Translations under genes and position numbers: made by a program
NCBI GenBank assembly: GCA_001275005.1
Contig: JWZX01002788.1
Coordinates: 1-32,803 of the forward strand
Direction of reading: 5' to 3'
Origin: Chrysochromulina tobinii
Lineage: Eukaryota
Length of the DNA stretch: 32,803 nucleotides
The notes under the pieces: generated by a model
Told to the model about the DNA's origin: nothing
What the model saw: only the letters and a program-made list of their open reading frames with translations
Databases searched by the model: none
Part shown: piece after piece, positions 1 to 28,402 of the stretch
How positions within the stretch are numbered: the first letter of the stretch is position 1
Layout of the letters: each line of letters begins with the position of its first letter

Positions 1-1890
1 GTGCAGTGACAGCTTTGACAGGCTGGCTTGCATCTCCATCTCCGCCGCGTGCTTGCGACGCAGCTTCTTGCTCTCCTGCTTGCGCTTCTTGTGCAAGCGC
101 TCGCGCATCGCCCTCGCCTCTGCCAACACACCCTCGCTCGCGAGTGCGTGGTGCTCCTCGATCGCGCCGACCAGGCCCTCGTACTGCGCGGCCGCCATGG
201 CCACACGAAGCGCCTCGTTGGCGGCGGCAGAAGGAGCAGGACCCACGACGTCCTCGTCGTCGCCAGCCGCCGCCAACACATCGTTGTCCGGCTCGGCGCT
301 GCCACTCGCGGCCGCTGACGCACTCGCTGCCGGCGCTCTCGCCTCGCTCGCCCCTTTCTTCTTGGCCTTGGCTTTCTGGCTCGCGTTCGTCTTCTGCGCG
401 CGCTGCTTGTGCACGCCCTCCGCCTCCTCCTGGGCCAGCAGAGCCGCAGCGGCAAGCTCGGCTGCCCGCTCGGCTGCCGCACGCTCCGCACTCGACACTG
501 GAGCGACCGCAGCGATCGTCGCAGGTGCGCGGCCCCTGCTGCGCAGGAATCTTGCGATGGCGGTATGGCCTCGGGCCTCTGCGACATCGAGGGCTGTGCC
601 GAAAGCAGATTGCAAGTCGGCGCGTGCGCCAGCATGCACGAGCAGCATGACTATGTCGCCGTGGCCTTCGTAGCAGGCGGTGTGCAGAGGCGTGGCGCCG
701 TAGCTTTTTGCCTGGTCGATGGCGGCGTGGGCGGCGAGCAGCAGCTGCGCGCAGTCGCCGTCGCCTTTGACGCAGGCGGCGTGCAGAGGCGTGGAGCCGT
801 AGATGTCGGCCTGGTCGACGACGGCGTGGGCGGCGAGCAGCAGCCGCACGCAGCCGCCGCTGCCTTCGCCGCAGGCGGCGATCAGAGATGTGGTGCCTCT
901 GCTGGTTGCCTGGTCGACAGCGGCGTGGGCGGCGAGCAGCAGCTGCACGCAGTCGCCGTGGCCGCTGTCGCTCGCGGCGATCAGAGGCGTGGCGCCGTCG
1001 CTGTCTGCCTGGTCGACGGTGGCGTGGGCGGCGAGCAGCAGCTGCACGCAGCCACCGTGGCCTTCGATGCTGGCGGCGCGCAGAGGCGTGACGCCGTTGC
1101 GGTCTGCCAGGTCGACGACGGCGTGGGCGGCGAGCAGCAGCCGCACGCAGCCGCCGTGGCCTTTGTCGCAGGCGACGAGCAGAGGCGTGCGGCCGTCGCT
1201 GTCTGCCTGGTCGACGGTGGCGTGGGCGGCGAGCAGCAGCTGCACGCAGCCACCGTGGCCTTCGATGCTGGCGGCGAGCAGAGGCGTGACGCCGTTGCGG
1301 TCTGCCTGGTTAACGGCGGCGTTGGCGGCGAGCAGCAGCTGCACGCAGCCACCGTGGCCTTCGATGCTGGCGGCGCGCAGAGGCGTGACGCCGTTGCGGT
1401 CTGCCTGGTTAACGGCGGCGTGGGCGGCGAGCAGCAGCCGCACGCAGCCGCCGCAACCTTTGACGCAGGCGACGATCAGAGGCGTGTTGCCGTCGCTGTC
1501 TGCTGCCTGGTCGACAGCGGCGTGGGCGGCGAGCAGCAGCTGCACGCAGCCTCCGTTGTCTTTGCAGCAGGCGGCGTACAGAGGCGTGACGCCGTTGCTG
1601 GCGGCCTGGTCGACGGCGGCGTGGGAGGCGAGCAGCAGCTGCACGCAGTTGCCGTGGCCTTTGTCGCAGGCGGCGATCAGAGGCGTGACGCCTCTGCTGG
1701 TTGCCTGGTCGACGGCGGCGTGGGCGGCGAGCAGCAGCTTCGTGCACTTAGGGTGACCAGTCTCACATGCAGCATACAGGCAGGCGCCGAGGTGGTCCGC
1801 TTCTGTCACGCTGTCGATGAGGCCCACGGCATTCGCCTCTTCGCCGCGATGGAGCGCGTCGACGATCGCGTGCATGGCCGAGCGTCGCAT
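1..1890 (-). CDS. Ankyrin-repeat protein (about 12 ANK repeats + Ala/Lys-rich linker), 3'-truncated by the window edge; paralog of the ANK-kinase at 22561-25975
   Basis: ATG at 1890 (MRRSAMHAIVDALHRGEEANAVGLIDSV...), open frame running to base 1. 33-aa repeats such as AAVDQADRNGVTPLRAASIEGHGGCVQLLLAAH. Bases 10-660 align almost base-for-base with 24085-24735. Confidence 0.88.
   Translation of the reverse strand, partial: MRRSAMHAIVDALHRGEEANAVGLIDSVTEADHLGACLYAACETGHPKCTKLLLAAHAAVDQATSRGVTPLIAACDKGHGNCVQLLLASHAAVDQAASNGVTPLYAACCKDNGGCVQLLLAAHAAVDQAADSDGNTPLIVACVKGCGGCVRLLLAAHAAVNQADRNGVTPLRAASIEGHGGCVQLLLAANAAVNQADRNGVTPLLAASIEGHGGCVQLLLAAHATVDQADSDGRTPLLVACDKGHGGCVRLLLAAHAVVDLADRNGVTPLRAASIEGHGGCVQLLLAAHATVDQADSDGATPLIAASDSGHGDCVQLLLAAHAAVDQATSRGTTSLIAACGEGSGGCVRLLLAAHAVVDQADIYGSTPLHAACVKGDGDCAQLLLAAHAAIDQAKSYGATPLHTACYEGHGDIVMLLVHAGARADLQSAFGTALDVAEARGHTAIARFLRSRGRAPATIAAVAPVSSAERAAAERAAELAAAALLAQEEAEGVHKQRAQKTNASQKAKAKKKGASEARAPAASASAAASGSAEPDNDVLAAAGDDEDVVGPAPSAAANEALRVAMAAAQYEGLVGAIEEHHALASEGVLAEARAMRERLHKKRKQESKKLRRKHAAEMEMQASLSKLSLH
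661..1745 (-). repeat. Tandem 99-bp ankyrin-coding repeat array (about 11 units; one unit has an extra codon near 1500)
   Basis: Core ggcggcgagcagcagc recurs every 99 bp. Confidence 0.9.
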
Positions 1891-7994: not shown

Positions 7995-9605
7995 ATGTCA
8001 CTCTCGCGGCACTCGCTGTTGCCGCTGCTCGCGCTCGTGCTCGTGCCGCTCGCGTCTCCGTTTGGACGGCTGCGTACGAGCGACCGGCTCGAGCAGGCCG
8101 CGAAGCTCCTCGGCGACGCCGCCGAGCCTCCGTCACCTCCAGGCGAGAGCGGCGCGACATTCGTCCCGCTGCCCACGGCTGAGGAGCTTGCCAAGTGCAT
8201 GGACAAGAACCCGGAATGCGCGCGGTGGGCCAAGGGCGGCGAGTGCGAGGCGAATCCCGAATTCATGCTCCACGAGTGCCCGGCGGGCTGCCAGCAGTGC
8301 CAGTCCGAAAACTGCCGCGACAAGAATGCGGTGTGCGCGAGCTGGGCGGCGAGCGGCGAATGCAAGGCCAACCACGCGTTCATGCTCAAAGAATGCCCGT
8401 TCGCGTGCAAGGTGTGCCACATCAACTTCAAGGAGGCGTGCCGGCGCGATCCGGCTATGGCGCCCGCTGCGGTGCCGGGCACCATAGACGCGACCATCGA
8501 GCGCGCGCTGCGCGAGTTTCCAGCGTTCCGGCCGCGCGTGCTGCACCGCGAGCCGTGGGTGATCGAATTCCAATCGTTCCTGACGGAGACCGAGGCGGAC
8601 CACATTATACGCACGGGCGGGCACAATTTCGAGCGCAGCCTCGCAGGCGACGGCGTCACACCCGTCCGTACCAGCTCTACCAGCTGGTGCAATGTGGAAT
8701 CGTGTCTGTCGGATGGTCTGTTCCAGGTGATGGCCGCTGATGGCCGCTGATGGCCGCTGATTGCCTCTGGTTGCCTCTGGTTGCCTCTGGTTGCCACTGA
8801 GCCTCGTCCGTGTCGGTCTGATGCAGTCCGTGCGCGAGCGCATCGTGAACGTTACACGCGTGCCGTGGGAGAACGCCGAGCACTTGCAGGTACTCCGCTA
8901 TCATCCGGGCCAGTTCTACCGAGAGCACCACGACCAGAACTCGCCGCACTATTCAACGTGGGGACCACGGCTGTTCACCTTCTTCATGTACAGCGCTGAG
9001 GACCCCTGATTGTTCGCTGAGGACCCCTGATTGTTCGCTGAGGACCACTGATTCTTCGCTGACTGCACCCTGATTGCGTCCCTCATCAGGTACCTGTCGG
9101 ATGTGGAGGAGGGCGGCGAGACGCGCTTCACGAAGCTCAACCTGACAGTCGCGCCCAAGAAGGGTTCGGCGATCTTGTGGCCCTCCGGTGATGAGCACCG
9201 ATAGCCATTGAGTACCCTGAGTAGCCACCGAGTACCCACTGTGGGCTCGGCGATCCTGTGGGCCACCCCAGCATGCAAGTGCTCACCCCGGCGCCCTCCG
9301 AGTACCCCCTGTGGGCTCGGCGATCCTGTGGGCCACCCCAGCATGCAAGTGCTCACCCCGGCGCCCTCCTGCGCCCAGTGTTCTCGCGCGATCCATGGAC
9401 AACTGATGAAGGCACGTACCACGAAGCCGTCACCGTGGCCAAGGGCGTCAAGTACGCGGCCAACTTTTGGATCCACATGTTCGAGTTCCAGCAGGCGCTC
9501 ATGCGCGGCTGCGACAATGAGGACTACTGGCAGGATATGCTGCTTGACGACGAGAGGTTCGGCAAGGGGATGCTCGCTAAGCCGAACCCATCTAAAGGGT
9601 ACTAA
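7995..9605 (+). CDS. Secreted prolyl 4-hydroxylase (2OG-Fe(II) dioxygenase) with two N-terminal ShKT domains. Exons 7995-8726, 8827-8987, 9090-9187, 9379-9605
   Basis: Signal peptide. CMDKNPECARWAKGGECEANPEFMLHECPAGCQQC and a second ShKT. RTSST, EHLQVLRY, HHD, YLSDVEEGGETRF, HEA, KYAANFWIH. All three introns are GT-AG and keep frame. Confidence 0.92.
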
Positions 9606-10131: not shown

Positions 10132-13100
10132 TCAAGGCCGTTTCATCTGCCACCACGCCGGCCAGTGCGCGTCCGCATGCAAGCACAGTGAATTATACGA
10201 CGTGGCGCATAGCCGTCCACTCGCCCCAAACAGCCAAACTTGGCGTGCCACCAGCGACTGGCTGCATGGTTGGAGTGCCGCAGGACAGTCTGGACAGCTC
10301 GCATCGGCAGCAGTCACGCAGTGCCCCGATGGGACATGCTTGATGGCCGCTGCTGTGCCGGCCGTACTTGCAGCCGTGGGGCTTGCAGCCGTGGCAACAG
10401 CAGTGGCCGCCGTGTGGTTGGTCGTGACGAACTCCTGGGTTGGCGCCGACGTGGTGGCACACACGTCAACCGTGAGATTCGACGGAGATATGGCGCCTCC
10501 GTCGACCGCCGTCAGACAGAGAGACGCACTGACGTCGAGAAGACGTAGGACGGTGTAGCCGCTGACCGGCTGCGGCTGCAGCCGCCAGCAGTCATTCGTG
10601 TTGCACTCGACGCCTTGGCCATTCGGACGGCCAACAACGCGATCTCCTGCCTTGGGGGTAGGCTGCTTGGGGTAATTGGGTGAATAAGTCTGCCCCTGGG
10701 GACGGACCATCAGACGCCCCTCTTGGACCCATGCATCGCCTCGTCCCTCCGTCTCAAACTGCTCGGGGGTCATTTAGTGCAATCCGTGACAATCCGAGAG
10801 GTCATCAGTGGCCATCAGTGGCACTCAGAGAGGTCATCGGTGGCCATCCGAGGCCATCCGAGGCCATCCGAGGCGGCACTCACCTGCGTGACCATCCTAT
10901 GCCTCCAGCTAGCAAGCACAGGTTCGAACACCGTGTTGGGCGCCAGGTCGATCGTCTCCTTCGGATCGGCCGTGAGATTAAACAGCTGCTCGTCGCCCCG
11001 ATTTGCATTGTACACGTACCTGATTAGGGAGGCAGCAATCATGGGTCATCAGATGTCAGACGGAACAACAGGTTGTCGCGCTGAAACGCGTGGATCAGTA
11101 TCTGCTCGGTTGGCCATCAATCGCAATCCATGATCATCAATCGCAATCCATGGTCATCAATCGCAATCAATGATCATCAATCGCAATCCATGGTCATCAA
11201 TCGCAATCCATGATCATCAATCGCAATCAATGATCATCCCTGGCAATCGCGGTGCACGTACTTGATGAGGCCGTCAGTGAGGGCATTCCAATGGTTTGAG
11301 TCATTATAGCACGTGCTGTGCTCGAGGTCGAGGTATTCACGCCACGGACCCGGATTGGGCGCGTATTCACAGCGCGCGCCCGTCGGGTCGGTGAGTAGGC
11401 AGAGCATCGATTTCCCATCCGTCGGGTCGAAGGGGGGCTGCGCCCACGACTGCGCGCCGCTCGCGAGCCCAGCAGCATCAACGAGGGTGTGGAAGACATC
11501 GCGCAGCTCTGTGACGACGGGTGGCTCGACGATAGAGCCGCGGGAGATGAGGGTCTGGCCGAGCTTGGCACGCGACTGCGCCCAACGCTCGGGCCATCGC
11601 AGCAGCATCGGCACGTGCGCCGAGAACTCGTACGGGTACCTACATTCAGTGGCATTCAGAGGCACTCAGAGGGACTCAGTGGCACGCCGAGAACTCGTAC
11701 GGGTACCTGCACTCAGAGGCACTCAGTGGCACTCAGTGGCACTCAGAGGCACTCAGTACGGGAGCCTGCAATTATAAAGGGGTCTTGCTTGCTAGCAGTG
11801 GTCATCATTAGAGGCCCTCACGGACCCCTTCCGCCAATGGTAGTGGTCGCCCTGCCCATCGCCGTGGTCCGACGTCCAGAGGATGAAAGTGCTCTCGAGC
11901 AGGCCGGTCTGCACGAGCGTCTCGTAGATGAGTCCCATCTGCTCCACCACCATTCGCAATCACTCGCACTCAGTGACAATCACTCGCAATCACCATTCGC
12001 AATCACTCGCAATCACCATTCGCAATCACTCGCACTCAGAGACAATCAAGCAGTTCGTGACCATCTTCAGTGGTCACTTTCGAAATGATCCTCATCAGCA
12101 TCGATTGCGCACTGATACTCACTGCACTCACCTGCTCATCAGTGTGCAATCAGTGCGCAGTGCATCTCAATCAGTGACAATCAGTGACAATCAGTGCAAT
12201 CAGTGCAATCAGTGCAATCAGTGCATCTCACTCAGTGACAATCAGTGGCCATCAGTGGCCATCAGTAGCACTCACCTGCTCATCGACGAAAGCCACCGAC
12301 GCAGCGTACGCGCGCCGGCCCAACGTCGCCTCCTCCTCCGGCATGGCGCCACACCTGATGAGGGAGGCAATCAGCATGCAATCAGACTCAGCGCCGGCCC
12401 AACGCCGCCTCCTCCTCCGGCATGGCGCCACACCACGCGTCCGCGGAGACTTCACACCCAGGAGGGTCGCCGAGGCTCGCATTGCCTCGAAACCGAGTGC
12501 TCCAGCAGCTGCTCGCACCGCTGGAGATCGCGCCGTGGACGCTTGCGCCGCTGAAGGTCGCGCACCGCACCATCGGGCGCAGCGCCGTCGTGGGCACTTG
12601 GTCAAGCAGGCGTTGCGGCGGGTCGTAGGGCGAATGAGGGCGGTGGAAGGACACCTTGAGCAGGAAAGGCTGGCCAGACGGGTCATGCGCCTTGAGGAAG
12701 GCGACAGCCTGAGCGCCGAGCCATGCGGTCGGATGCAGTCGCTCCTCGTACACAAAGGCCTTGCCATGCCAACCGTTCCAACCATCACCGTCCAGCGGGT
12801 CAAGCGTGGCGGATGGGTCCTGTCCAGGCATCTGCTGGGCAAACCAACGGTCGTAGTCGTCGTACTCGCCGTTCCATGGCCATGGTCTCGCCGACGGGTC
12901 CCAACGGCCCAGCCCATCGTACAGCACGGTGCGGTCGTACCCGTGCGCAATGCCTGAGTCGGACGTGGCGTTCCACCCAAAGTGATCCTTTCCCAGCGAC
13001 GCGGTGATGTAGCCCGCGTCCCGCAGCAACTGCGGGAAGACGAGCGGGTAGTGCTCGGCGACGTCACCATACCCGAGCATGCCGTGGCCCCAAGGACGCC

Positions 13101-22560: not shown

Positions 22561-25500
22561 TCAACGTGATGAAGTGCCCTCGAGCGCCTCAATCGCCGTC
22601 TTCACCGCGGACACTAGCTGCGACGCCTCCGCCTCGCCCCGTGGGCCATCGCGGCGCCAACGATCGTCGTCGAGGTGGCGCGCGGCATTTGCCCAAATGC
22701 GGAGCGAGTGCAGCCGATCTTTCAGGTCGGCCCGCATGCTACACTCGCGATGCCAATAGTTGATGCGCTCCTCAAAGCCCTCGGGCGCCTTCGCCGCCCT
22801 CGCTGCATAGATGGCGTCGAGTCGAGACATGACGCTGCTGAACGCGAGCAGCATATTGTCCTTGATGCCCTTGTGCGCATCGGAGCCCTTGCGCATCTCA
22901 CGCACCTGCTTCGAGAGCGGCGTGGGCACGTAGCCAGCCGCCGTGCTCGCGGGCGGCTCCGAGCTTGAAAGCACCGAACCGTCGAGCGCGCCGCGGCCTG
23001 TGCCTCTGCTCCCATCCTCATCAGCCAGGCTTGAGAGCGTCGCCAGTGCAGCGGACACCTTGAGCCTCTTCCGCACACTCGTGCCATGGCACAGACCCGA
23101 AGCAGCAGACCGGACAAGGTCCTTGAATTTCGTTGCCACATGTGGCGGCCAGCCTGCAGTAGCGTCAGCAAGCTGTACTGCATCGATGTCCTCAAAGTCC
23201 TTATCGAAGTCCTCCTCGCACCTAGTGATGATGCTCAGGGGCGAGCGGCCGGTAAGCGCCACGAGCAGCGTGATGCCCAGCGCCCAACCATCCGTCATAG
23301 CTGAGTACGCGCCGCCCTCGACAACGCTCGGGTCCAGATAGCCGCGGGTCAGGTAGAGCGCATTCGACGCGCTCTTCATCTTCGACGCCTCGGTCCCGGC
23401 GTCCATCTTGGCGAAGCCCGTGTCCGCGAGGTAGGCGTTGAGCTCGTCGTCGAGCAGGATGTTCTCGGGCTTGAAGTCGCGATGCACGACGGCACCCTTG
23501 CCGCCAGGCACTCGCGTGTGCAGGTAGAGCAGCGCGTCGGTCGCCTGGCGTAGGATGCGCAGGCGCTGGTGCCACATCAGAGGGCTCAGCGACGCACCGA
23601 GGCCGAGGCGGCGCAGGTGCTCGGAGTCGGCCTCTTTCGGCCACAGCCGATCGGCGAGGCTGCCGCCGCGCATCAGCGGGAAGACGAGGCACGGCGGCGC
23701 CCCGTGCTCCAGACAGTAGCCGAGCAGCGGCAGCACGTGCGGGTGGCTGCACTGCTGCAGCACACTCACCTCGCGCTGCAGGTCGGCGAGATCGTGCACG
23801 CCCGACTTGGCGCGCTTGACGGCGACGGGCTTGTGGCGCAACCAGAGCGGCAGCGCCGCGGGCCGCAGCGACGACAGCGCATCCGCGGTGTAGACGTTGC
23901 CGTAGCCGCCGCTGCCGATGAGCCTCTGCTCTCCAAAGCCGTCCGTCGCCGCCGCAAGCTCGGCGAGCGTGAGGGCGACGGCCGCAGGCGGCGCCGAGGG
24001 TGCCTCCGGGGCCTCCGATGCAGGCGCCGCTTCTGCGGATGCTGAGCCTGCGGCAGGCGGCGACTGTGTGACCTCGAGCAGCGACAGCTTCGACAGGCTG
24101 GATTGCATATCCATCTCCGTCGCGTGCTTGCGACGCAGCTTCTGGCTCTCCTGCTTGCGTTTCTTGTGCAAGCGCTCGCGCATCGCCCTCGCCTCCGCCA
24201 ACACGCCCTCGCTCGCGAGTGCGTGGTGCTCCATGATCGCACCGACCAGGACCTCGTACTGCGCGGCCACCATGGCCACACGAAGCGCCTCGTCGGCGGC
24301 GGCAGAAGGAGCCGGACCCACGACGCCCTCGTCGTCGCCAGCCGCCGCCAACACCTCGTTGTCCGCCTCGGCGCTGCCACTCGCGACCGCTGACGCACTC
24401 GCTGCCGGCGCTCTCGCCTCGCTCGCCCCTTTCTTCTTGGCCTTGGCTTTCTGGCTCGCGTTCGTCTTCTGCGCGCGCTGCTTGTGCGCGCCCTCCGCCT
24501 CCTCCTCGGCCAGCAGAGCCGCAGCGGCAAGCTCGGCTGCCCGCTCGGCTGCCGCACGCTCCGCACTCGACACCGGAGCGACCGCAGCGATCGTCGCAGG
24601 TGCGCGGCGCCGGCTGCGCAGGAATCTTGCGATGATCGTGTGGCCTCCAGCCTCTGCGACATCGAGGGCTGTGCCCGAAGCGCATCGCAAGTCGGTGCGT
24701 GCACCAGCATGCACGAGCAGCTTGACTATGTCGCCGTGGCCTTGGTTGCAGGCGGCGTGCAGAGGCGTGGCGCCCTTGCGGTCTGCCTGGTTGACACTGG
24801 CGTTGGCGGTGAGCAGCATTTGCGCGCAGTCGCCGTGGCCTTTGTTGCAGGCGGCGAGCAGGGGCGTGAAGCCGTCGCAGTCCGCATGGTCGATGGCGGC
24901 GTGGGCGGCGAGCAGCAGCTGCACGCAGTCGCCGTGGCCTCTGTCGCTGGCGGCGAGCAGACGGCGTGTTGCCGTAGCTGGAGGCCTTGTCGACGGCGGC
25001 GTGGGCGGCGAGCAGCAGCCGCGCGCAGTCGCCGTTGCCTTTGACGCAGGCGGCGTACAGAGGCGTGCCGCCTTCGCGGTCTGCCTGGTCGACGACGGCG
25101 TGGGCGTCGAGCAGCAGCCGCACGCAGCCGCCGTCGCAATTGTCGCAGGCGGCGATCAGAGGCGTGGTGCCGTTGCTGTCTGCCTGGTCGACGGTGGCGT
25201 GGGCGGCGAGCAGCAGCCGCACGCAGTCGCCGTGGCTTTTGCGGCAGGCGGCGTGCAGAGGCGTGACGCCCTTGCGGTCTGCCTGGTCGACGGCGGCGTG
25301 GGTGGCGAGCAGCAGCCGCACGCTGTCGCCGTGGCCTTTGTCGCAGGCGGCGTACAGAGGCGTGACGCCGTAGCTGGAGGCCTGGTCGACGGCGGCGTGG
25401 GCGGCGAGCAGCAGCTGCACGCAGTCGCCGTGGCCTTTGTAGCAGGCGGCGTACAGAGGCGTGGCGCCGTCGCTGTCTGCCTGGTCGACGGCGGCGCGGG

Positions 25501-25975
25501 CGGCAAGCAGCAGCTGCGCGCAGTCCCCGTCGCCTTTCATGCAGGCGGCATGCAGAGGTGTGATGCTCCATTTATCAGCCTGGTCGACGGCGGCGTGGGC
25601 GGCGAGCAGCAGCTGCACGCAGTCGCCGTTGCCTTTGTTGCAGGCGGAGATCAGAGGCGTGGTGCCGTTGCGTTCTGCCTGGTCGACGGCGGCGTGGGCG
25701 GCGAGAAGCAGCTGCACGCAGTCGCCGTCGCCTTTGTCGCAGGCGGCGATCAGAGGCGTGACGCCGTTGCTCTCTGCATGGTCGACGGCGGCGTGGGCGG
25801 CGAGAAGCAGCCTCGCGCACTTAGGGTGACCAGTCTCACATGCACTCAGAAGGCTTTTCCCGAGGTCGGCCGCTCCTTTGACGCTGTCGATGAGGCCCAC
25901 GGCCATGGCCTCGTCGCCGCGACGGAGCGCGTCGACGATCGCGTTGGCCTTGACGAGGTTGCCTGTCGCGTCCAT
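22561..25975 (-). CDS. Ankyrin-repeat (x12) + IRAK/Pelle/RLK-like protein kinase + putative HEPN/DUF4145-like C-terminal domain; apparent 1-bp insertion at 24962
   Basis: ANK repeats. LTLAELAAATDGFGEQRLIGSGGYGNVY, VAVKR, HRDFKPENILLD, ADTGFAK, GYLDP, TDGWALG. C-terminal LHSLRIWANAARH. ORFs 23222-25975 and 22561-24924 join if c24962 is removed (gagcagaCggcgtg vs consensus gagcagaggcgtg). Confidence 0.88.
24735..25820 (-). repeat. Tandem 99-bp ankyrin-coding repeat array (about 11 units)
   Basis: 99-bp periodicity of ggtcgacggcggcgtgggcggcgagcagcagc. Confidence 0.9.
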
Positions 25976-26170: not shown

Positions 26171-28106
26171 ATGCCAGTCCCTCGCTGCGGCGCCTCGCAA
26201 ACGAGGTCGTCGTCTCCTCTGCTGCTGCTCACTCTGCTGTCAGGCACGTCGGCAGTGCTGCGTGTGCGTGTGCCACGGATGAACGCGGGCGGTGCCACGA
26301 TTGGAGCTGCCACGCGCTTCTCCATCCTCAGCGGCCGCGTTCTGACGCCCGGCTCCTCTGGCGACGGCTGGTGGGACGGCCGGTGCGCCGCGATGCCGAT
26401 CGTGCTGCCCCCGTCCGCGTCGCGCAGCAAGTGGCAATGCTTCTATTACGGCCGCTCGGACGACAAGTGGAACTGCGGGTTGCCCGCCTTCTTGCCGACG
26501 GGCGTCTCAGGGCTCGCCGAGTCAGACGACGGGCTCACCTGGACGCGCGTCGAGGGTCCCCTGGAGGGCGGCGCCATTCTGCGCCCGTCGGACGCACCCG
26601 ATGCCTTCGACCACGTGCACCTCGGCATGACGGACGTCTTTCCGCTCGCGGGCGGCGCGTACGCAGCACTCTACTTTGGGGGCAGCGCAGATGAGGTGCG
26701 GCTGGGCATGGGGCCCAGCCCTCCTATCCGGGGCTTCAAGATGCGCCCAGGCGCGGCGACCTCGCGCGATGGGCGCGGGCGCGTCTGGGAGCGCGCGCAT
26801 GGATCCAATCCCCTGCTGGACGTAGGCACCTCTGGCACTTGGGATTCCAATTTCGTCTCGTGGCCCCGGGCACTGCCCCTTGACCCCGGGCAGCCGGATG
26901 GCGAGTGGCTCATGACGTATCACGCGCTGCAGCCGCCGGAGGCGGAGGGTGCACCGCCGCGCTGGGCGGTCGGTGCAGCCGTGAGCCAGGATGGTCATCC
27001 GATCGGCCGTTATGCCAAGCTCGAAGGGCCCATCCTCAGTGGAGGCGCACCGGGGAGCTTTGACGAAGCTGGCATTGGCACGCGCCACGTGGTGCACGAT
27101 CCGGCAGGCGCTGTATCGGGCGCTGGGCTCGTGATGGTGTACGAGGGCGTGGGCGCGGACGGTCGCCACCGGCTCGGCATCGCCACCTCGTCCGACGGGC
27201 GTCTGTGGACCAAGGCGGAGGGCTTGGGGCCCGACCCGGGCGGTCCCATCTTTGAAGGCGCTCCGCCCGAGGCCGATGCTTGGGACAATGGCAACGTGGG
27301 TACGCTCGCGAGCACGAGAAGCTCTCCCCTTGGAGCCTGGTCAGCTGCATGCAAGTGCTCACCACGGCGCCCTCTCCTCCCCACAGGTACGCTCGCGAGC
27401 ACGAGGAGCGCCATGCCTGGCGCATGCACGTGCTCATCACGGCGCCCTCGCCCTTCCCCACAGGTACGCCGTGGGTCGTCCCACTGCCGAGCTGCATGCA
27501 CGTGCTCACCACGGCGCCCTCTCCCTTCCCCACACAGGGTACGCCGTGGGTCGTCCCACTGCCGAGCGGCCGTTGGCGCCTGTATTACGTCGGCACGTCG
27601 AGCAAGGGACGCACCGTCGCCATCGGGGCCGCGGAGGCGGATGCGCTCATCACGGCGCGCTGGGCGCGCGTGCCCGTCTCGGCCAGCGGTCTGTGCGTGG
27701 ACGAGCGCGACGGCGCAGGCGAGACTTCCCTCATCCTTGGAGCCTGGCCAGCTGCATGCACGTGCTCACTACGGCGCCTCCTCCTCATCGGGCAGGCGAG
27801 ACTTCCCTCATCCTGGCCGCCGAGCGTGGCGATGCCGGTACGCTCCGCATCCTTCTCGCCGCCGGAGCCGACCCCGGCGCTTCGAGTCGCTCGGGATGGA
27901 CTGCGCTGCATGGCGCGGCCGAGCACGGCAGTGTGCCCATCATCGAGATGCTCGCGGCCGCTGGCGGCGATGTCTCCGCGCTTGCCAAATCGGGCAAGAC
28001 GCCCCTCGACATCGCGCGCCAGTATGCGAGGCCCGAGGCTGCGCAAGCGCTGGAAGCACTCGGCGCAGCAGCGAAAGTCTCGGGCGACACGCCGAGCACC
28101 TTTTGA
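26171..28106 (+). CDS. Five-bladed beta-propeller glycoside hydrolase-like protein (GH32/43/130-like fold) with C-terminal ankyrin repeats. Introns from 27300 (acceptor 27463 or 27537) and 27719-27795 (GC-AG)
   Basis: N-terminal hydrophobic signal. Blade motifs WWDG, GLAESDDGLTWTR, AFDH, WDSNFV, SFDEAGIG, LGIATSSDGRLWTK, AWDNGNVGTPWV..WRLYYVG. ANK motifs GETSLILAAERG, GWTALHGAAEHG, GKTPLDIA. Confidence 0.8.
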
Positions 28107-28402
28107 GTGGACACCTGCCTTTCACGAACAGAAACGCATGTGCAGAAAATCACAAGTTTTCCCCACAGAAATGCTGTCGAGTAAACACCTCTCTTTCCCC
28201 ACAGCACGCTGTTTGACGCTCGGGCAATGCCGCTTCGCTTGTCACTTGTGAATGAGAGGAGAGGTGTTCACTCGGCAGACAGAAATGTCCCTATGCATTC
28301 ACTGCTGCGCGGCCTCTCACTCTCCCGCGGCGCTCGGCCGACCCAGGGGACGGGGCGGAGCGGCTCAATCACTGAGGTCAGAGGTTGAACCTCTGCGGCT
28401 CA

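What the first reader, a model, noticed from the sequence alone, without database searches (positions are those of the whole stretch)
27715..27814. Second duplication-born intron (GC-AG) using a different shared cassette
gcaggcgagacttccctcatcct is repeated at 27715-27737 and 27792-27814. Between the copies lies tggagcctggccagctgcatgcacgtgctcactacggcgcc, nearly identical to 27331-27371 in the upstream intron of the same gene. Removing 27719-27795 (GC...AG) fuses the frames into an intact ankyrin repeat. This suggests the acceptor cassette was copied from a neighbouring intron.
Basis: partly seen in the sequence, partly recalled or inferred. Interest (0 to 1): 0.7.

Follow-up and report, generated by a model that had tools for sequence, protein, structure and literature searches.

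The report
Introns copied from other introns' ends
A 77-base intron in a gene of a probable alga is cut out in RNA, is bracketed by a 23-base repeat of the gene's own coding sequence, and carries a scrap of an unrelated gene's exon, which suggests that new introns here are likely made by copying the back end of existing introns, probably often a neighbouring one.

Summary
The 23-nt repeat is exact, and 27719-27795 is the only GY..AG register. One of 6 RNA runs joins across it, and the spliced protein is colinear with 14 ankyrin-fused homologues. The cassette core is a genome-wide family (hundreds of copies), but its 5' extension is rare and is exon sequence of an unrelated gene. That gene's 87-nt intron matches unit 1 of the upstream intron (27 of 29 residues), and shortened or altered copies sit here and in four other genes. 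Other alleles of this gene carry two more such introns, each most like the upstream intron's own units. Best reading: a new intron is a variable (about 8-45 nt) duplication of the target exon plus a templated copy of an existing intron's 3' part. The donor here is probably the neighbour (about 0.6), although a remote copy is equally close (43 of 44). The scan noted the repeat-flanked family before on another piece of this genome (e1-2577349); the exon tag and the same-gene spread are new here.

The parts
27719..27795 (+). 77-nt intron, GC..AG register (register inferred; the only GY..AG one of 24)
   Evidence: (X17 contig 20)
27715..27737 (+). first copy of the 23-nt exon duplication; holds CAG|GC, supplies the GC donor
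27792..27814 (+). second copy of the duplication; supplies the acceptor AG and the start of the ankyrin exon
27735..27753 (+). 5' extension ('tag', reads PWSLAS): remnant of an exon of the unrelated P0101/P0111/P0170 gene; first 3 nt overlap the duplication
27754..27778 (+). genome-wide core cassette with branch-point-like CTCAC (A at 27768, 27 nt before the intron end; branch use not tested)
27779..27791 (+). pyrimidine-rich tail unlike the neighbour's; resembles the genome's second acceptor family (CCTCATCAG) with a 2-nt insertion and A>G, or a re-copy of the exon; origin unresolved
27300..27386 (+). upstream intron, unit 1: 87 nt, whole intron matching that of the P0101 gene (27 of 29 residues in read-through); candidate donor
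27387..27463 (+). upstream intron, unit 2 (CAC variant of the core); copy number varies among alleles; best match to the P0030 allele's extra intron
27464..27537 (+). upstream intron, unit 3: 30-nt exon duplication plus core and acceptor; absent in L003 and L004; the window has one more G after it than L004, L005, L007
26171..27299 (+). exon 1, no Pfam family; distant relatives carry BNR / glycoside-hydrolase-type labels; start codon uncertain (A>T in L003, L004)
27538..27718 (+). exon 2
27796..28106 (+). exon 3, ankyrin repeats to the stop codon
27837..27871 (+). empty site in the window; in L004 these 35 nt are duplicated around a cassette (79-nt insertion, GT..AG)
26659..26687 (+). empty site in the window; allele P0030 reads as a duplication of about 28 nt plus a unit-2-type cassette (protein-level evidence only)

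Best explanation
This is a spliced 77-nt intron that likely arose when 23 nt of exon were duplicated and the gap between the copies was filled by a templated copy of the 3' part of an existing intron, probably the tandem intron 400 nt upstream in the same gene. Shown: splicing in one RNA run, the exact duplication, the restored protein, and the origin of the 5' tag in another gene's exon. Inferred steps: (1) at a staggered break or a slipped fork in the exon, synthesis switches to an existing intron through a few matching bases; (2) it copies the branch-point region and a variable length of what lies 5' of it, so donor-specific scraps travel along; (3) it returns to the earlier exon position, leaving a duplication of about 8-45 nt; (4) the first copy offers a GT/GC donor, the cassette or the second copy offers the AG, and the spliceosome restores the old mRNA, so the event survives. 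Every new intron becomes a template, so the family spreads as a chain, locally and between genes. Whether the template is DNA or unspliced pre-mRNA is not decided; I favour DNA repair or template switching.
For: RNA join of exactly 77 nt in X17; X17 shares 11 of its 17 listed substitutions outside the 5' indel with L004, whose DNA holds this intron. Tag origin: P0101/P0111 read exon copy + cassette + exon with period 29 residues = 87 nt = unit 1; P0170 lacks the insert, and relatives keep the peptide as coding sequence. Tag copies start at different points in this intron, L002, myosin P0106 and acyl-CoA dehydrogenase P0105; a long altered form is in dynein P0108 and P0102. Local evidence: summed depth over the tag is about 10 times single copy (413 vs 39; self, neighbour and L002's 5 units included) against about 600 times over the bin with the core (26,157 vs 43; rough, not a copy number). 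This intron has the CAC variant of local units 2 and 3, whereas tagged copies in 5 of 5 other genes have CAA. L004's new intron matches local units on both sides (8 nt left of the core in window unit 3, 23 nt right of it in unit 2 and in L003), and both of its exon copies carry L004's own substitution. P0030's insert matches local unit 2 at 19-20 of 21 residues and other cassettes at 16 or fewer, or 18 for L004 unit 2. All 3 GTACGC hexamers of the spliced coding sequence hold such an intron in some allele. Exon-start repeats scoring 8 or more occur at 7 of 10 cassette introns in 57 kb (one doubtful) against 8.0% of 1,028 random YAG sites.
Against: No empty allele of this very site was seen: 3 of 3 covering loci, 2 DNA runs and 3 read-through proteins carry the intron, several not independent of the window. 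The window's copy shares a T variant with remote L002 (43 of 44) and is an exact copy of no local unit. The 3' tail is not the neighbour's, and the 3' microhomology here is at most CAGG. The CAC variant also occurs in untagged remote copies (P0103, P0190). Many DNA contigs start matching at one point, 27346-27347 (28 and 50 contigs), as a defined element end would. Only 1 of 6 RNA runs bridges the join, it comes from another strain, and X12 reads unspliced into the intron (27627-27777). The GTACGC enrichment among protein hits is partly built into the query. No whole genome was available.
Confidence: 0.55

Rival explanations
1. Same templated copying, but the donor of this intron was a remote tagged copy (the P0101 gene, L002, myosin, dynein or an unseen one); the neighbour is a sister, not the parent.
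For: L002's last unit differs from the window's copy by 1 of 44 and shares its T variant. The tag demonstrably moved between unrelated genes. The metagenome scan is incomplete: each assembly returned only one of the two known genes.
Against: Tagged copies are about 1-2% of the family by depth, so two independent arrivals 400 nt apart are unlikely. L004 and P0075 lack the T variant in this intron. Remote tagged copies lack CAC.
Confidence: 0.2
2. The core is a tiny non-autonomous transposon with one fuzzy end (Replitron- or Helitron-like HUH element, or a SINE-like element inserted by target-primed reverse transcription) that makes variable target duplications, drags parental flank along and hops locally.
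For: Replitron-1 insertions show variable target duplications and a fuzzy end taken from the parental flank, and one such protein was recovered from a haptophyte genome (10.1101/2022.12.15.520654, passages). The family has a fairly sharp 5' edge and short palindromes (seen in the sequence). Non-LTR introners are about 5% of classified cases (PMC12130899, passages).
Against: No terminal inverted repeat and no A-tail. At least two unrelated cassettes show the same footprint. This copy lacks the usual 3' end. Some copies start inside the core (P0065). Tandem duplications across an existing acceptor give the same layout without any element.
Confidence: 0.2
3. The 77 nt are an insertion allele that is not spliced; the RNA join comes from an intronless strain, and the window's gene is frameshifted or split.
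For: The only join comes from another strain; X12 reads unspliced; no empty DNA allele was excluded for X17. 46 of the 61 homologues carry no ankyrin label, many being fragments or shorter forms.
Against: All DNA alleles seen, including L004 which is closest to X17, carry it. X13 and X15 contigs stop matching exactly at 27737 with 2 unaligned letters beyond (weak hint; letters not shown). The ankyrin exon is intact. GC donors are common in another haptophyte (56% of 241 curated junctions; PMC4028052, passages).
Confidence: 0.05

Closest known systems
Introners that carry the 3' splice site and take the 5' site from a target duplication (Symbiodinium; Polarella glacialis classes 4/5, 6/8/10; class 14 takes both sites from an AGGH duplication)
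   Same: Multi-copy intron family, donor recruited from duplicated exon, mRNA unchanged (10.1101/2020.10.14.339549, parts 1-2 of 4; PMC9860276, passages).
   Different: Those have class-specific duplications of 3-8 nt and, in Symbiodinium, terminal inverted repeats. Here duplications run from about 8 to 45 nt, there is no inverted repeat, only the 3' part is shared, and donor-gene exon scraps are carried. The Chrysochromulina example in PMC9860276 has 4-nt duplications and carries its 5' site, the opposite layout.
Tandem genomic duplication of an AGGT-bearing exon segment
   Same: Both splice sites of this intron come from the duplicated CAG|GC (mechanism as reviewed in PMC3443670, passages).
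   Different: 54 of the 77 repeat-period bases are not exon duplicate but a copied cassette.
Intron gain at staggered double-strand breaks (Daphnia)
   Same: Polymorphic new introns with a direct repeat of the adjacent exon, later internal duplications (PMC4202315, passages).
   Different: Daphnia repeats are 4-12 bp; here they are longer and the filler is traceable to other introns.
Intron transposition within one gene (Oikopleura near-identical pairs) and Micromonas introner elements
   Same: Copies within the same gene; nested or merged elements (PMC3879977, passages).
   Different: Reverse splicing inserts a whole intron with no exon duplication; here most copies are 5'-shortened and come with a target duplication.
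Replitron-1 of Chlamydomonas reinhardtii
   Same: Variable target duplication and parental flank carried at one end (10.1101/2022.12.15.520654, passages).
   Different: That is a 0.9-3.6 kb element with terminal direct repeats and a transposase partner; none was seen here, and the passages read report no intron formation.

Membership tests
Spliceosomal GC-AG intron | Removed from RNA | tested here: met
   X17 contig joins across 77 nt; 1 of 6 RNA runs, other strain
Spliceosomal GC-AG intron | GC donor and AG acceptor at the cut | tested here: inconclusive
   only GY..AG register of 24, but the repeat hides the true cut from RNA
Spliceosomal GC-AG intron | Lariat branch point | not testable with these tools
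   CTCAC with A 27 nt before the end; no lariat reads
Spliceosomal GC-AG intron | Removal restores a conserved reading frame | tested here: met
   14 of 14 ankyrin-bearing homologues colinear
TIR/TSD Introner (MITE-like) | Many copies in the genome | tested here: met
   depth about 600 times single copy over the core bin
TIR/TSD Introner (MITE-like) | Terminal inverted repeats | tested here: not met
   at most 3 of 12 complementary end positions
TIR/TSD Introner (MITE-like) | Fixed-length short target duplication | tested here: not met
   8, 12, 22, 23, 30, 35, 43 nt in DNA, about 45 nt from protein
TIR/TSD Introner (MITE-like) | Copies alike end to end | tested here: not met
   only the 3' core is shared; 5' parts are locus-specific
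Tandem genomic duplication intron | Both splice sites from a duplicated AG|GY | tested here: met
Tandem genomic duplication intron | Intron made only of duplicated exon | tested here: not met
   54 nt between the copies are cassette
Replitron-1-like HUH element | Variable target duplication and parental flank at one end | tested here: met
   (resemblance only)
Replitron-1-like HUH element | Short direct terminal repeats and RG target | not tested
   element ends are not defined well enough in the copies held
Replitron-1-like HUH element | Autonomous Rep transposase partner sharing the ends | not testable with these tools
   no whole genome held
SINE / non-LTR insertion | Variable target duplication with 5' shortening | tested here: met
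SINE / non-LTR insertion | 3' A-rich or simple-repeat tail | tested here: not met
   copies end in a pyrimidine run and CAG

The most novel reading that the evidence does not exclude
This lineage makes introns with no transposon at all: any existing intron's 3' end is a template that is copied into exons, primed by its own AG|GTACGC junction, possibly from unspliced pre-mRNA, giving an ongoing self-amplifying chain whose pedigree can be read from captured exon tags and whose spread is strongest within the same gene.
Probability: 0.35. Interest if true: 0.85.

Novelty: new variant of a known kind. Interest (0 to 1): 0.68.

Why it matters
Where new introns come from is an old open question, mostly because new introns rarely show their source. 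Here the source is tagged: an exon scrap lets one follow an intron from the gene where it was born into five other genes, and filled and empty alleles coexist (two sites in this gene, one in the P0103/P0107 gene). That makes donor choice, distance and DNA-versus-RNA template testable with population long reads. Such families could also be missed by introner screens that need end-to-end similarity or a fixed duplication (inference). Practical point: gene callers read through these introns and give chimeric proteins (P0001, 644 aa).

Tried and rejected
No whole genome or record search was available, so the census rests on 57 kb of DNA, contig depth and read-through proteins. Viral scans: one search gave 1 locus (L001, a true cassette with acceptor), one search gave 29 loci of which only L019 (same contig as L001) is a cassette, one search gave 0. 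Prokaryote scans: one search gave 0; one search gave 9 bacterial loci with no acceptor behind the match (7 printed); all dropped. An apparent GG-AG or GT-GG upstream intron (239-nt skip) was rejected: L004, L005 and L007 lack one G and give GT..AG, 238 nt. The idea that the tail once ended in CAG at 27791 (a 4-nt slide of both splice sites with the same mRNA) found no supporting allele: one search returned only P0001 among 81 candidates, and one search found neither window frame. RNA runs X14 (no cover) and X16 (pieces on both sides, no bridge) say nothing. The ESM Atlas gave no usable hit for the donor gene; Pfam names neither it nor exon 1. Folding energy of the intron (-16.3) was not compared with shuffles and is not used. 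Look-ups of earlier notes by sequence and by one word set were empty.

Full report
Observation. The 23-nt repeat at 27715-27737 and 27792-27814 is exact with period 77, far beyond chance (about 4e-6 expected). The middle matches 27331-27371 at 38 of 41. Only removal of 27719-27795 has GY..AG ends.

Splicing and gene. Six RNA runs were laid as contigs (the piece tables were cut). X17 (poly-A) has one contig covering 27538-27714 and 27792-27982 without a break, a 77-nt skip. X12 reads unspliced from 27627 to 27777 at low depth. X13 and X15 stop matching at 27737 with two unaligned letters beyond, a weak hint of the spliced path. X14 and X16 do not bridge. X17 is another strain, but 11 of its 17 substitutions outside the 5' indel are those of L004, whose DNA holds the intron, so the join is most simply splicing. 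The spliced product is 540 aa and colinear at both junctions with all 14 ankyrin-labelled homologues; 18 of 61 hits were aligned, and 46 hits carry no ankyrin label. The homologues' unbroken frames, some on contigs of 13-28 kb, suggest a gain in this lineage (inference; transcript origin is not excluded). GC donors are common in Emiliania (PMC4028052, passages), so the GC itself is not surprising.

The cassette is a family. Summed DNA depth over the bin holding the core is 26,157 against 43, a rough sign of hundreds of copies. In 57,342 non-redundant bases, 10 separate cassette introns of two families were scored (tandem units of one intron counted once): 7 have a repeat of the downstream exon start scoring 8 or more, one of them doubtful, against 8.0% of 1,028 random YAG sites. 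Lengths vary from 8 to 43 nt. There are no terminal inverted repeats.

The tag. The part 5' of the core is rare: about 10 single-copy equivalents, and an exact scan returned 6 loci from 2 genes, an incomplete count. A protein search with the read-through frame gave 11 hits among 78 candidates. P0101 and P0111 read exon copy, cassette, exon with a period of 29 residues, the 87 nt of unit 1, and match it at 27 of 29. P0170 lacks the insert, and relatives keep the peptide as coding sequence (19 of 30 hits aligned). So the tag is exon of that unrelated gene. Its intron was likely born by a duplication of about 45 nt, copied whole into this gene as unit 1, and copied in shortened or altered form into this intron, L002, a myosin, an acyl-CoA dehydrogenase and a dynein gene. 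Except for L002, the remote evidence is protein-level and the direction is inferred.

Local spread. L004 has a 79-nt insertion at 27837 that the window, L005 and L007 lack: 35 nt of exon, both copies with L004's own substitution, plus a cassette whose flanks match the upstream intron's units best. P0030 reads as another such insertion at 26659 with the unit-2 version. All 3 GTACGC hexamers of the coding sequence are thus occupied in some allele. The upstream intron varies from 2 to 4 units, with two independent duplications across its acceptor (window unit 3, P0065). A filled/empty pair also exists in another gene: 4 of the listed members lack the first insert, and they keep the downstream intron.

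Which donor for this intron? For the neighbour: rarity of the tag, the CAC variant shared with units 2 and 3 and absent from tagged copies in 5 of 5 other genes, and the two other same-gene events. Against: L002 is 43 of 44 to the window's copy and shares its T variant, no local unit is an exact match, CAC occurs in untagged remote copies, and the tail is not the neighbour's. I put the neighbour at about 0.6. The acceptor AG here comes from the second exon copy, so 'acceptor cassette' should read 'branch-point cassette'.

Mechanism. I favour microhomology-guided templated insertion at a staggered break or slipped fork: variable duplication, variable 5' start, donor scraps carried, and two unrelated cassettes behaving alike. 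No enzyme or template type is shown. A fuzzy-ended transposon of Replitron type stays possible, since many copies start matching at 27346-27347 and Replitron-1 leaves a similar footprint.

What is known. Introners with donors taken from 3-8 nt duplications, tandem duplication of AGGT, break-repair introns with 4-12 bp repeats and same-gene copies in Oikopleura each share part of the picture. Eight paper searches listed no paper on this family or on exon-tagged chains of intron 3' ends. The library lacks most subscription papers. I read passages only (also PMC12130899, and PMC8469720), half of one preprint, and no supplements, where the family may be tabulated.

Verdict. New variant of a known kind; interest 0.68.

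Noticed in passing
window 28164-28277: 114-nt element with 20-nt inverted arms (28174-28193 / 28259-28278) after the stop codon; bin depth about 3,000 against 43; absent in L004, so a polymorphic MITE-like insertion.
   Followed up: partly
window 27537-27539: One more G than in L004, L005 and L007; probably an assembly slip that makes the upstream intron look non-canonical.
   Followed up: yes
window 12355-12433, minus strand: 79-nt intron of the second cassette family (…CCTCATCAG) with a 43-nt exon duplication.
   Followed up: partly
window 11618-11752 and 12132-12278, minus strand: Introns with 10-mer arrays and duplicated splice-site neighbourhoods.
   Followed up: no
window 9190-9378: Intron with two 70-nt units made of a diverged copy of the upstream exon end plus the core cassette, a different layout.
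   Followed up: no
L002 4157-4400: Intron with five tandem 44-nt tagged units and an 8-nt exon repeat.
   Followed up: yes
window 3-1871 and 24078-25900: Two paralogous ankyrin-array genes about 87% alike, 24 kb apart.
   Followed up: no
L005 1-5215: No match to the window upstream of 22550, although L005 follows the window at 99% from there; a rearrangement or a misassembly.
   Followed up: no
P0001 (L005, L007): The two introns sum to 315 nt, so gene callers read straight through and give a 644-aa chimera with exon 2 in the wrong frame.
   Followed up: yes
L001 / L019: A contig of the viral collection ends in this cassette with an acceptor; probably host DNA.
   Followed up: no
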